DNA from: the human T2T-CHM13v2.0 reference genome, Homo sapiens
Assembly (NCBI RefSeq): GCF_009914755.1
Contig: NC_060927.1
DNA: 64,000 bases
Strand: one strand, 5' to 3'
The translations under genes and the position numbers were made by a program. Positions 58,054-61,263 of the stretch are shown piece after piece. Below the pieces are notes generated by a model, which was not told where the DNA came from, searched no databases, and saw only the letters and a list, made by a program, of their open reading frames with translations. The stretch's first letter is position 1. Every line of letters begins with the position of its first letter.

Positions 58054-58797
58054 CCTGGATCGATAGTTTCTATGTAGAATAATGAAAACATTCTGGAAAT
58101 GGATAGTGATGATGGTTGCATAACAATGTGAATACATTTAATGTCACTAAATAGTACACTTAAAAATGGTTAAAATGGGCCAGGCACGTTGGCTCACACC
58201 TGCAATCCCAGCACTTGGGGATGCCAAGGTGGGCAGATCACTTGAGGTCAGGAGTTCAAGACCAGCCTGGCCAACATGGTGAAACCCTATCTCTACAAAA
58301 AATACAAAAATTAGCCGGGTGTGGTGGCACATGCCTGTAGTCCCAGCTACTTGGTAAGCTGAGACAGAAGAATCGCTTGAACCGGGAGGCAAAGGTTGCG
58401 GTGAGCAGAGACCACGCCGTTGCATTCCAGCTTGAGTGACAAGGAGACTCCGTCTCAAAAAAAAAATCACCAAATAATTTTTGTTTGTTTGTTTTGAGAG
58501 TCTTGTTCGGTCACCCAGGCTGGAGTGCTGTGACACGATCCTGGCTCACTGCAACCTTTACCTCTGGGTCCAAACAATTCTTCCTCAGCTTCCCAAGTAG
58601 CTAGAATTACAGGTGCGTGCCACCATGACCCTGCTAATTTTTGTATTTTTAGTACAGGCAAGGTTTCACCATGTTGGCCAAGCTGGTCTTGAACTTCTGA
58701 CCTCAAGTGATCCACCCACCTTGGCCTCCCAAAGTGCTGGGATTACAGGCATGAGCCACTGCACCCAGCCACCAAATAATTTTAAAAGTATAATGAG

Positions 58798-60080
58798 AAG
58801 AGGCTTGCCTGCCACCATGTAAGACATGCCTTTGCTCCTCTTTCACCTTCTGCCATGATTGTGAGGCCTCCCCAGCCATGTGGAACTTATATTCATTGCT
58901 CAACAAGGAAGAGACTTGCAAGGCTATTACCCTGGGCAGTTGGCAAGACTCCATTTTGATCATAGTGCAAAGAGAGCTCTCAGATTGGAACAAGAAATTA
59001 GCCACAGATTCACTGAATCCTTGACCTCTTAGTTCACTGCCACAGCTCTACTATTGTGAAGAGAGAAGCGGTTTTGAAAGAAATGCTTTTAAATTAAAAT
59101 AACCAAGGCATTCGAACAAAATATCGTTTGGCATTCTTAGGTAACTCTTTTAGACTAATGTAATGGTAGCAAAACTACTTTTAAGTGTGTATACAGATGG
59201 CTCTAATCCTAAAATATTTACATGCTGCAAATTATTTTCAGATTAAGTTGGTCAGCTTACAACAGGGGATCAAGAGCTAGCCTTAAGAGAACTTGTTTTT
59301 TACCCCATTACCAGTCTTATTGCTGATGCTGGCAAACCATCATACATTTAGGCCAATGGTTATATGTAGGCTCAGGTAAGAAGATTACTGCATCTGCTCA
59401 GTAAGTGCATCACCGTTGGGAAAAATAAAAAAGAACCTAGGGGACATAGCCAATGAGGAAGAAGACTGGCACTAGAGACCCTAAAGGGGCTTGGGATGGA
59501 GAAACCCAGGTGTAGCATAGGGCTATAGTGAGATGTGGGACTGGTAAAAAGGATTAAGTGAACATCTGTACACAGGAGTTAACACCCTTATCTGGGCAAG
59601 AAGAAAGCCTGACAACTAGGCATCAGCTCCTCAGGCAGAAAGCTAAAGGGTCTTCTCTAAGGACAGGAAAGGATCCCAAAGAAAAGAACCTTTGCGGGGC
59701 GCAGTGGCTCACGCCTATAATCCCAACACTTTGGGAGGCCGAGGCAGGCAGATCACCGGAGGTCAGGAGTTCAAGACTAGCCTGGCCAACATGGTGAAAT
59801 CCCATCTACTAAAAGTACAAAAACTAGCCAGGTGTGGTGGCAGGTGCCTGTAATCCCAGCTACTTGGGAGGCTGAGGCAGGAGAGTCGCTTGAACCCAGG
59901 GGGGCGAAGGTTGCAGTGAGCCGAGATCGCACCACTGCACTCCAGCCTGGGCGACAAGAGCAAGACTCTGTTTCAAGAAAAAAACAAAAAAACCTTACCA
60001 GTTCCCCAGCATACTAGTGGGCTCCCTCCTCATTTACCCCAAAGTAACACCTATCAATTAATAAACTTCTCCCCCCAAAA
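58798..60080 (+). pseudogene. Processed pseudogene of a THE1-LTR-initiated, exon-skipped C1orf100 (SPMIP3)-like transcript
   Basis: 14-bp TSD aaaagtataatgag (58784-58797, 60081-60094); AATAAA 60060-60065 and A tail; peptides [30 protein letters not shown] and [38 protein letters not shown] match my recollection of C1orf100. Confidence 0.85.
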
Positions 60081-61263
60081 AAAAGTATAATGAGGATTAA
60101 AGGATATAGATGAAACAAGAGTGTCCCCAAGTTAATGACTAAGTGACAGACATAACTGAGTGATAGGTACACAAGGGCTTATTGCTCTCTATTTGGATGT
60201 ATATTTGAGTTTTACTATAATAAATATTAAAAAACAAACAAGTCTTCAAAATGTGCAAAGCTTTTCAAGAATTTATCCCCTTACAAATTTTAGCAAAAAT
60301 GAGTACAGAAGAGGAGGCAGGGAAAGGCAAGGCTCAGAGGGATTCAACAGTATAAAAAATAAAATAAAATAAGAATAAGAACAAAGATTTGGCTATAAGA
60401 ATACAATCACAGTAATATTTAGAACGGGAAGGAAATGTGTTATGTATTTTATAGTAAAACCTGAGACAAAGAGCAGAAACCATTAAAAACAATCTAGACG
60501 ATTAAAACACTTAAGCACAAGCTGGAAGACCCTGGATACAAACTTGACTCTGAGCTTCCTAGTGGCCAAGGCAGAGAGAGGAAAACATCAACATAGTTCT
60601 AGTATACTTAGAGGTATACTACAGGCGCATGCCACCACACCTGGCTAACTTTTGTATTTATAGTGGAGACGGGGTTTCACACATGTTGGTCAGGCTGGTC
60701 TCGAACTCCTGACCTCAGGTGATCCACCCTCCTCAGCCTCCCAAAGTGCTGAGATTACAGGCATGAGCCACTGTGCCTGGCCAACACCTTGTATATTTTA
60801 TGCTTTCTGAAAATGCTAAATATCAAATAAGCCACTGGTTCCCAAATGTTTTGATCATGAATGCCCAACAACAAAAATTCAAGTATATGCTCCCAATACA
60901 TGTACACTTACATATAAATTATATATGTACTACAGTGATAATACAGTGTACATTATAAAGTACATAATAAAAATTATTATGGTGGTTCATGCCTGTAATC
61001 CCAGCACTTTGGGAGGTTAAGGTGGGTGGATCACTTGAGGCCAGGAGTTTGAGACCAGCCTAACCAATATGGTGAAACCCCATCTCTACTAAAAATACAA
61101 AATTAGCCAGGTGTGGTGGTGCACAGCTGTAATCCCAGCTACTCGGGAGGCTGAGGCAGGAGACCAAGATTGCAGTAAACCAAGATAGCATCAATGCACT
61201 CCAGCCTGGGCAACAGATTGAGTGAGACTCCATCTCAAAAAAATAATAATAATAATTAAATGG

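What the first reader, a model, noticed from the sequence alone, without database searches (positions are those of the whole stretch)
58784..60094. Fossil of an LTR-driven, exon-skipped C1orf100/SPMIP3-like mRNA retrotransposed into SCAP intron 1
Seen: a 1.28-kb insert bounded by a perfect 14-bp TSD at a TT/AAAA site, ending in AATAAA and an A tail. It starts with about 85 nt of THE1B/C-like LTR that stops exactly at ...GCCATGTGGAACT (58887), where THE1 consensus continues with the GTGAGT splice donor. It then joins sequence encoding [30 protein letters not shown] and, after a frame change at 58983/58984, DWNKKLAT...ERNAFKLK* (stop 59100-59102), followed by a long 3'UTR containing an Alu. I recognise these peptides from memory as internal and terminal parts of testis protein C1orf100, with the intervening segment absent. 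Inference: the parent gene had a germline or early-embryo isoform initiated from a THE1 promoter and skipping an exon. A repeat track would show only a THE1 scrap and an Alu.
Basis: partly seen in the sequence, partly recalled or inferred. Interest (0 to 1): 0.8.

Follow-up and report, generated by a model that had tools for sequence, protein, structure and literature searches.

The report
Retrocopy of an LTR-started SPMIP3 transcript
This is an old, dead copy of the sperm gene SPMIP3, pasted into a SCAP intron from a messenger RNA that began in a retroviral-type repeat and skipped one exon, so it preserves an ancient alternative transcript of that gene.

Summary
Window 58798-60080 (+) is a 1,283-base L1-type processed retrocopy of SPMIP3/C1orf100. 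It is bounded by a perfect 14-base target-site duplication at a TT/AAAA site and lies antisense in SCAP intron 1. RefSeq already lists its coding-like part as SPMIP3P1.

A search of the same assembly gave five collinear pieces at the chr1 parent locus:
- 84 bases of a sense 363-bp LTR in the intron after the ATG exon, ending exactly where that LTR continues with GTGAGT;
- the 96-base coding exon 2;
- the last exon, in two stretches, running to a poly(A) site.

The 173-base coding exon 3 (residues 51-108) is precisely absent, which shifts the frame. The copy's LTR part begins 30 bases after the LTR's TATAA, the spacing expected for a transcription start.

- The Alu is a later insertion, absent from the parent.
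- An in-frame TGA lies at 59022-59024.
- The first 6 bases are unassigned.
- The THE1 subfamily name and the tissue of expression were not testable here.

Divergence from the parent is about 11% (K2P 0.115), which suggests very roughly 40-50 Myr.

This is a neat but ordinary kind of genomic fossil; interest 0.3.

The parts
58784..58797 (.). 5' copy of the 14-base target-site duplication, starting at a TTTT/AAAA site
   Evidence: 2 matches in the window, 0.04 expected by chance
58798..58803 (+). 6 bases at the 5' junction that match neither the LTR family nor SPMIP3 (filler or untemplated bases, or a mutated transcript start)
   Evidence: genomic LTR copies differ from the insert here; matches start at 58804
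58804..58887 (+). LTR-derived first exon: 84 bases of a THE1-like (name recalled) MaLR LTR, from the predicted start site to the LTR's splice donor
   Evidence: 91.7% to the sense LTR at C1:243781794-243781877, which continues with GTGAGT; TATAA lies 30 bases before the first matched base
58888..58983 (+). SPMIP3 coding exon 2 (96 bases; residues 20-50)
   Evidence: 93.75% to C1:243791758-243791853, flanked by AG and GT in the parent
58984..59102 (+). Coding part of the last SPMIP3 exon (residues 109-147 and TAA at 59100-59102), joined directly to exon 2 and so out of frame with it; in-frame TGA at 59022-59024 where the parent has CGA
   Evidence: 90.8% to the parent from C1:243805324
59103..59695 (+). 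3'UTR, first part; its last 14 bases (59682-59695) are the 5' copy of the Alu's degenerate target duplication
   Evidence: 88.3% to the parent up to C1:243806039
59696..59985 (+). Alu-type SINE inserted after retroposition; absent from the parental 3'UTR; flanked by a degenerate duplication (59682-59695 and 59986-59999, 11 of 14 alike); about 29 parental bases are missing beside it
   Evidence: 191 of 196 BLAST rows against the 110-kb parent region fall in this stretch and none is collinear with the UTR; internal 45-base dimer repeat
59998..60073 (+). 3'UTR, last part, with AATAAA at 60060-60065 (the parent now reads GATAAA there)
   Evidence: 88.2% to C1:243806071-243806146
60074..60080 (+). 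Remnant of the poly(A) tail (CCC plus 4 A outside the duplication)
60081..60094 (.). 3' copy of the 14-base target-site duplication

Best explanation
Window 58798-60080 is a processed pseudogene (RefSeq SPMIP3P1). The L1 machinery made it by reverse-transcribing one polyadenylated SPMIP3 (C1orf100) transcript into a TT/AAAA site in SCAP intron 1, on the strand opposite to SCAP.

That transcript was not the canonical mRNA:
- It began in a sense solitary-looking 363-bp MaLR LTR (THE1-like; name recalled) that lies about 490 bp after the ATG exon of SPMIP3.
- It used the LTR's own GTGAGT donor to splice to coding exon 2.
- It skipped the 173-base coding exon 3.
- It ran through the last exon to a poly(A) site.

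The copy lacked the native ATG and was frame-shifted, so it could not encode SPMIP3 from the moment it arrived. It later gained a CGA-to-TGA stop and an Alu insertion.

Shown directly: the retrocopy hallmarks, the exon-exact junctions, the sense LTR with a donor in the right intron, and the exon skip.

Inferred:
- that transcription started in the LTR (the 5' end lies 30 bases after TATAA);
- that this particular LTR copy was the source;
- that the isoform was present in germline or early-embryo cells, which any heritable retrocopy requires;
- the age of about 40-50 Myr.
For: Retrocopy hallmarks:
- Perfect 14-base duplication: 2 matches in the window against 0.04 expected by chance.
- TT/AAAA target site, AATAAA and an A run.

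Parent locus:
- 5 of the 196 BLAST rows of the insert against 110 kb of chr1 are non-SINE. Four of them are collinear on the + strand: LTR piece 243781794-877 (91.7%), exon 243791758-853 (93.75%), last exon 243805321-6039 (87.4%) and 243806071-146 (88.2%). The fifth is a second sense LTR piece at 243725759-842 (86.9%).

Splice sites in the parent:
- LTR ...GGAACT|gtgagt.
- ctag|exon 2|gtgag.
- tttag|173-base exon 3|gtaag.
- tccag|last exon.

Parent gene:
- The four chr1 coding exons translate to an uninterrupted 147 aa.
- Pfam PF17670 finds all four exons there, and elsewhere only this retrocopy plus one weak chrX match at E 3.85: 7 matches from 9 candidates.
- The PDB SPMIP3 chains place the two peptides at residues 20-50 and 109-end.

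LTR family:
- 24 of 30 other copies have GT right after the piece, and 18 of 30 have GTGAGT.
- TATAA lies 30-32 bases before the first matched base in 24 of 32 copies, including 30 bases in the chr1 intron copy.
- The chr1 LTR spans about 243781598-243781960.

Literature:
- THE1B-HEY1 chimeric transcripts are seen in testis (PMC3836709, passages).
- THE1-initiated transcripts occur in human oocytes (PMC6102241, passages).
Against: - Sequence does not single out the intron LTR as the source. The 84-base piece is 94-99% identical to the 39 LTR copies elsewhere that were scored (957 first-look candidates) but only 91.7% identical to the chr1 intron copy. The two share no private variant: 0 shared departures.
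- A second sense copy 66 kb upstream of exon 2 is 86.9% identical and is not formally excluded.
- The first 6 bases of the insert are unexplained.
- The start site is inferred from TATAA spacing only. L1 copies are often 5'-truncated, so the 5' end could be a coincidence.
- No transcript data could be consulted, so neither the LTR>exon 2 junction nor the exon 2>last-exon junction has been seen in any RNA.
- The A tail is very short.
- The Pfam match to the ATG exon is weak on its own (E 3.6), although the exon reads cleanly.
- C1orf100 and SPMIP3 do not occur in the held supplements of three LTR-transcript or embryo-isoform papers. Those held files may be incomplete.
Confidence: 0.83

Rival explanations
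1. The template RNA started further upstream, at the canonical SPMIP3 promoter or another promoter. The LTR segment was an internal, exonised piece that used the LTR donor. The retrocopy is 5'-truncated and merely happens to end near the LTR's TATA-proximal position.
For: 5' truncation is common for L1-mediated copies (established knowledge). The first 6 bases of the insert do not match the LTR. No RNA data were available to show a start site.
Against: The LTR match starts 30 bases after TATAA, the standard TATA-to-start spacing, and 24 of 32 copies keep that spacing. No exon 1 or other upstream sequence is present. Published THE1B cases use the LTR as promoter together with its donor (PMC5134097, PMC3836709).
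Confidence: 0.1
2. The transcript was LTR-initiated and spliced as described, but from a different sense LTR copy: the one at C1:243725759-243725842, or another further upstream.
For: That copy is sense and has GTGAGT at the same place. Sequence does not single out the intron copy.
Against: It is less similar (86.9% against 91.7%) and lies 66 kb before exon 2. A transcript from it would have to skip the ATG exon and any other exon on the way. Nearly all of its differences from the retrocopy would have to be on its own lineage.
Confidence: 0.05
3. The LTR piece and the SPMIP3 part were joined during reverse transcription, by a template switch from a 5'-truncated SPMIP3 mRNA to an unrelated THE1 RNA, and not by splicing.
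For: Chimeric retrocopies made by template switching are known (established knowledge). Copies elsewhere are more similar to the piece than the chr1 copy is.
Against: The junction coincides to the base with the LTR's GTGAGT donor on one side and the exon 2 acceptor on the other. A sense LTR sits in the right intron; about 0.085 would be expected by chance in 10.65 kb, given 49,182 annotated THE1A-D LTR fragments (Table 1 of PMC3836709).
Confidence: 0.02

Closest known systems
L1-mediated processed pseudogenes used as fossils of parental transcript structure (for example the MIR302CHG retrocopies that revealed an alternative exon; PMC7692494, abstract and outline read)
   Same: Intronless copy with a poly(A) remnant and target-site duplication. 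Its exon content records an alternative first exon and an exon skip of the parent gene.
   Different: Here the alternative first exon is the start-to-donor segment of an LTR. The held library holds no paper with both C1orf100 and LTR and none with SPMIP3P1.
THE1B LTR-initiated chimeric gene transcripts: THE1B-CSF1R (PMC5134097, passages) and THE1B-HEY1 (PMC3836709, passages)
   Same: A sense MaLR LTR upstream of, or within, a gene supplies the promoter, the first exon and the splice donor, and splices into a downstream coding exon, replacing the native 5' end.
   Different: Those cases were seen as RNA in living cells. This one is seen only as a DNA copy roughly 40-50 Myr old. The LTR lies in the intron after the ATG exon, so the native start codon is lost, and the transcript also skipped an exon.
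RefSeq pseudogene SPMIP3P1 (hub annotation, 58889-59099 +)
   Same: It is the same object. The annotated span is the SPMIP3 protein-like part.
   Different: The annotation covers 211 of the 1,283 inserted bases. It omits the LTR exon, the 3'UTR, the secondary Alu and the duplications.

Membership tests
L1-mediated processed pseudogene (retrocopy) | Exon-exon junctions exact, introns absent, intron-containing parent elsewhere | tested here: met
   junctions at 58887/58888 and 58983/58984 correspond to GT/AG-bounded introns of 9.9 and 13.5 kb on chr1.
L1-mediated processed pseudogene (retrocopy) | Target-site duplication at a TT/AAAA-type site | tested here: met
   perfect 14 bases, 2 matches against 0.04 expected; preceded by TTTT and starting with AAAA.
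L1-mediated processed pseudogene (retrocopy) | 3' end at a polyadenylation site, with an A tail | tested here: met
   AATAAA at 60060-60065. Homology to the parent ends at 60073. The tail remnant is very short: 4 A outside the duplication, 8 A in all.
SPMIP3 / DUF5530 (PF17670) | Significant profile and structure-database matches | tested here: met
   46.4 and 27.1 bits against a cut-off of 25. PDB chains named SPMIP3 or C1orf100 homolog, E 1.3e-10 to 1.8e-5.
SPMIP3 / DUF5530 (PF17670) | Intact reading frame (a functional gene copy) | tested here: not met
   Residues 1-19 and 51-108 are absent, there is a frame shift at 58983/58984, and an in-frame TGA lies at 59022-59024. It is a pseudogene, not a gene copy.
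THE1 (ERVL-MaLR) LTR | Similarity to a curated THE1 consensus (Dfam/Repbase) and subfamily assignment | not testable with these tools
An attempt to reach a published, named THE1B copy (HEY1) failed.
THE1 (ERVL-MaLR) LTR | High-copy LTR of about 360 bp with TATA box and internal splice donor | tested here: met
   957-1116 first-look candidates. The chr1 copy is about 363 bp; the published THE1B at CSF1R spans 357 bp by its coordinates. TATAA at 30-32 bases in 24 of 32 copies. GT in 24 of 30 copies.
LTR-initiated chimeric transcript | Sense LTR in cis upstream of the acceptor exon, splice from the LTR donor | tested here: met
   sense LTR 9.9 kb before exon 2 with GTGAGT at the break point.
LTR-initiated chimeric transcript | Transcription start inside the LTR | tested here: inconclusive
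   There is only the position of the retrocopy's 5' end, 30 bases after TATAA. No CAGE, RACE or long-read data could be consulted.

The most novel reading that the evidence does not exclude
The LTR in the intron after the ATG exon of SPMIP3 was a germline, oocyte or early-embryo promoter of this sperm-flagellum gene some 40-50 Myr ago, and it may still be one: its TATAA and GTGAGT are intact today.

Its exon-skipped product may not have been mere noise. The ATG at the end of the LTR exon (58878-58880) reads exon 2 out of frame. Because the skipped exon is 3n+2 bases long, that reading re-enters the native frame in the last exon. This would have encoded a short chimeric protein ending in the native 39-residue C-terminus of SPMIP3.
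Probability: 0.2. Interest if true: 0.45.

Novelty: new member of a known kind. Interest (0 to 1): 0.3.

Why it matters
The insert is a dated, DNA-level record that a MaLR LTR served as an alternative promoter and first exon for a testis gene in cells that contribute to the germline, tens of millions of years ago. It shows that scanning retrocopy 5' ends for start-to-donor LTR segments can recover ancient LTR-driven isoforms that no present-day RNA data set can show. For genome annotation, SPMIP3P1 should span 58798-60080, not 58889-59099. For SCAP or SPMIP3 biology it probably has no consequence.

Tried and rejected
- Private variants shared by the retrocopy's LTR piece and the chr1 intron LTR: none (0 shared departures). 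The retrocopy departs from the commonest base of 30 other copies at 1 of 84 columns and the chr1 copy at 6. However, the 30 copies were the ones most similar to the retrocopy, which biases the sample. Three of the 7 differing columns are polymorphic among copies (A 23/G 5; C 26/T 4; A 24/G 6); two of the 7 differences are transitions in CpG context, so polarity is ambiguous.
- Naming the LTR through a published THE1B copy. A THE1B-HEY1 RT-PCR primer printed in Table S6 of PMC3836709 maps to C8:80233504-80233524, but no LTR of this family lies within 1.5 kb of it.
- Paper search with three junction strings: 1 paper, unrelated.
- DUX4 motif strings in PMC3836709: not printed in the text, so no claim about DUX4 sites is made.
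- C1orf100/SPMIP3 in the held supplements of PMC6102241, PMC10616205 and PMC3836709: 0 files with occurrences.
- Pre-existing LTR scrap at the chr3 target site: rejected, because the piece lies inside the duplication-bounded insert and ends at the donor.
- Post-insertion deletion of exon 3: rejected, because both edges are exact exon boundaries.
- Three genomic LTR copies appeared to match 10 bases beyond the junction. This is chance similarity between the LTR's post-donor bases and the start of exon 2.
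Full report
**What is in the window**

- A 14-base string at 58784-58797 recurs at 60081-60094. At up to one mismatch these are the only 2 matches in the 64-kb window; 0.04 are expected by chance and 0 of 100 shuffles reach 2. One search found the same pair as a direct repeat.
- The first copy follows TTTT and begins with AAAA, the L1 endonuclease type of site.
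- The 1,283 bases between the copies (58798-60080) end in AATAAA (60060-60065), 11 further bases and an 8-A run. Four of those A lie outside the duplication.
- By the hub's gene table the site lies between exon 1 (outside the window) and exon 2 (31995-32214) of SCAP, on the opposite strand. RefSeq already annotates 58889-59099 as the pseudogene SPMIP3P1.

**Identity of the coding-like part**

- The peptide from 58889-58984 matches residues 20-50 of two PDB chains named Protein SPMIP3 and C1orf100 homolog (E 1.3e-10 and 1.7e-9). The other 2 of the 4 listed sequences are unrelated plant kinases at E 0.14 and 0.28.
- The peptide from 58983-59099, read with X at its in-frame TGA, matches residues 109-136 and 110-145 of the same two chains (E 4.5e-6 and 1.8e-5; 2 of 2 listed).
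- Both peptides hit Pfam PF17670 (DUF5530) above its cut-off, at profile positions 20-49 and 109-140.
- So residues 1-19 and 51-108 are missing and the two parts are in different frames.
- SPMIP3 is described as a sperm microtubule inner protein (PMC10973386, passages).

**The parent locus**

The window's own assembly could be searched. The insert without its SINE matched chr1 in spliced fashion. I then fetched 110 kb of chr1 and ran BLAST against it. Of 196 rows, 191 fall in the SINE stretch. The other 5 are all on the + strand:
- 58804-58887 to C1:243781794-243781877 (91.7%);
- the same piece to C1:243725759-243725842 (86.9%);
- 58888-58983 to C1:243791758-243791853 (93.75%);
- 58981-59692 to C1:243805321-243806039 (87.4%);
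- 59998-60073 to C1:243806071-243806146 (88.2%).

The flanks in the parent are canonical splice sites:
- The LTR piece is followed by gtgagt.
- Exon 2 is bounded by ag and gt.
- The last exon is preceded by ag. The 3-base overlap of the two BLAST rows is the CAG shared by the end of exon 2 and the end of the intron, so the true junction is 58983/58984.

Pfam PF17670 run over the whole genome found 7 matches from 9 candidates:
- the four chr1 exons. The ATG exon is weak on its own (E 3.6); exon 3 is strong (E 1.1e-26, profile positions 49-116);
- the two parts of this retrocopy;
- one weak chrX match (E 3.85).

This appears to be the only retrocopy of the gene.

The missing piece is one exon, C1:243794852-243795024. 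It is 173 bases long (3n+2), which explains the frame change. Joined in a script, the four chr1 coding exons translate to an uninterrupted 147 residues.

**The LTR**

- By homology with 30 other genomic copies, the chr1 copy spans about 243781598-243781960, that is 363 bp. Of 32 hits, 17 start at 243781598 and 11 end at 243781960.
- It lies in sense orientation, about 490 bp after the donor of the ATG exon (243781108) and 9.9 kb before exon 2.
- The 84-base piece belongs to a family with 957 to 1116 first-look candidates, of which 40 were scored in each search.
- In one search, 30 of the 37 repeat matches end exactly at 58887. The other 7 end at 58883, 58885 (two), 58888 or 58897 (three).
- The three longer matches reflect chance likeness between the LTR's post-donor bases and the start of exon 2.
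- Directly after the piece, 24 of 30 other copies have GT and 18 of 30 have GTGAGT. Both chr1 copies have GTGAGT.
- Upstream, TATAA lies 30 bases (21 copies), 31 (2), 32 (1) or 38 (2) before the first matched base, and is absent in 6, out of 32 copies. In the chr1 intron copy it lies 30 bases before.

The retrocopy therefore carries exactly the stretch of the LTR from the position where a TATA-driven start is expected to the LTR's splice donor.

The name THE1 is recalled, not tested, because no repeat library was available. The architecture agrees with what is printed about THE1B:
- A THE1B starts HEY1 chimeric transcripts that are also detected in testis. That copy is dated to about 40-75 Myr (PMC3836709, passages).
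- THE1 elements start transcripts in human oocytes (PMC6102241, passages).

**Mechanism**

The most economical reading has these steps:
1. An RNA started in the intron LTR.
2. It was spliced from the LTR donor to exon 2.
3. It skipped exon 3.
4. It was polyadenylated about 11 bases after the hexamer.
5. L1 copied it into chr3.

The junctions and the hallmarks of retroposition are shown directly. Three things are inferred:
- that the LTR acted as promoter, from the 5' end;
- that the intron copy rather than the distal copy was the source, from position and the higher identity;
- that the isoform was present in germline or early-embryo cells, because heritable retrocopies require that.

A sense LTR of this group in a given 10.65-kb intron is expected about 0.085 times. 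That figure uses the 49,182 THE1A-D LTR fragments in Table 1 of PMC3836709 and a 3.1-Gb genome, so its presence is mild independent support.

**Limits**

- Sequence cannot identify the source copy. The piece is 94-99% identical to the 39 copies elsewhere that were scored and 91.7% identical to the intron copy.
- Among the 7 differing columns the retrocopy departs from the commonest base of 30 other copies once and the intron copy six times, with no shared departure.
- Those 30 copies were selected for likeness to the retrocopy. Three of the 7 columns are polymorphic among copies, and two of the 7 differences are CpG-context transitions, so the 1:6 split (binomial p about 0.06) is not a real conflict.
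- The first 6 bases (58798-58803) match nothing and may be filler.
- No RNA evidence or chr1 annotation could be consulted.

**Decay and age**

- Over 963 aligned bases there are 102 differences: 89.4% identity, K2P 0.115. In the 3'UTR K2P is 0.128 to 0.133, and 0.104 overall without the CpG-context transitions.
- With recalled primate neutral rates of roughly 1.2-1.5e-9 per site per year per lineage, this gives very roughly 40-50 Myr. That is compatible with the published age range for a THE1B insertion, but it has not been checked against other primates.
- The TGA at 59022-59024 is CGA in the parent.
- The hexamer is AATAAA in the copy and GATAAA in today's parent.

**The Alu**

- The stretch at about 59696-59985 has 73 long (250 bases or more) matches on both strands of the 110-kb chr1 region (34 plus, 39 minus), none collinear with the UTR.
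- It has an internal 45-base dimer repeat.
- It is flanked by a degenerate duplication, 59682-59695 and 59986-59999, with 11 of 14 bases alike.
- At that point the parent has 31 bases instead. So the SINE entered the retrocopy later, and about 29 parental bases are missing beside it.
- The name Alu and my impression that it is of the S type are recalled.

**Comparison and novelty**

- The object is a member of the processed-pseudogene class and is already annotated.
- Retrocopies are already used to recover parental transcript structure (PMC7692494, abstract), and LTR-initiated chimeric transcripts are well known.
- The specific reading is what is new: an LTR start-to-donor exon plus an exon skip, fossilised in SPMIP3P1.
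- In the held library no paper holds both C1orf100 and LTR and none holds SPMIP3P1. The 25 titles listed, of 32 papers naming C1orf100, do not concern its isoforms. The held supplements of three relevant papers do not name the gene. Subscription papers and supplements not held could still mention it.
- I rate it a new member of a known kind, interest 0.3.

Noticed in passing
window 58878-59024: The ATG at the very end of the LTR exon (58878-58880) opens a frame that reads exon 2 out of frame. Because the skipped exon is 3n+2 bases long, the frame re-enters the native SPMIP3 frame in the last exon (…DWNKKLAT…) until the later TGA at 59022. Today's chr1 LTR has GTG at that place, while 29 of 30 other copies have A. 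This may well be coincidence.
   Followed up: partly
window 60060-60065 vs L021 (C1:243806120-243806135): The retrocopy keeps AATAAA where the present parental 3'UTR reads GATAAA. The parent's signal may have weakened since the copy was made.
   Followed up: no
L018/L019 (C1:243781040-243781052): The ATG exon of SPMIP3 is itself preceded by a pyrimidine tract and CAG, so there may be a non-coding exon further upstream. My exon numbers therefore count coding exons only.
   Followed up: no
window 58467-58770: An antisense Alu-type SINE ends about 13 bases before the retrocopy's 5' duplication. The order of the two insertions was not determined.
   Followed up: no
L047 (C12:64006176-64006196): The published THE1B-HEY1 forward primer has a second near-perfect site (1 mismatch) on chr12, so it may lie in a repeat or duplicated segment.
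   Followed up: no
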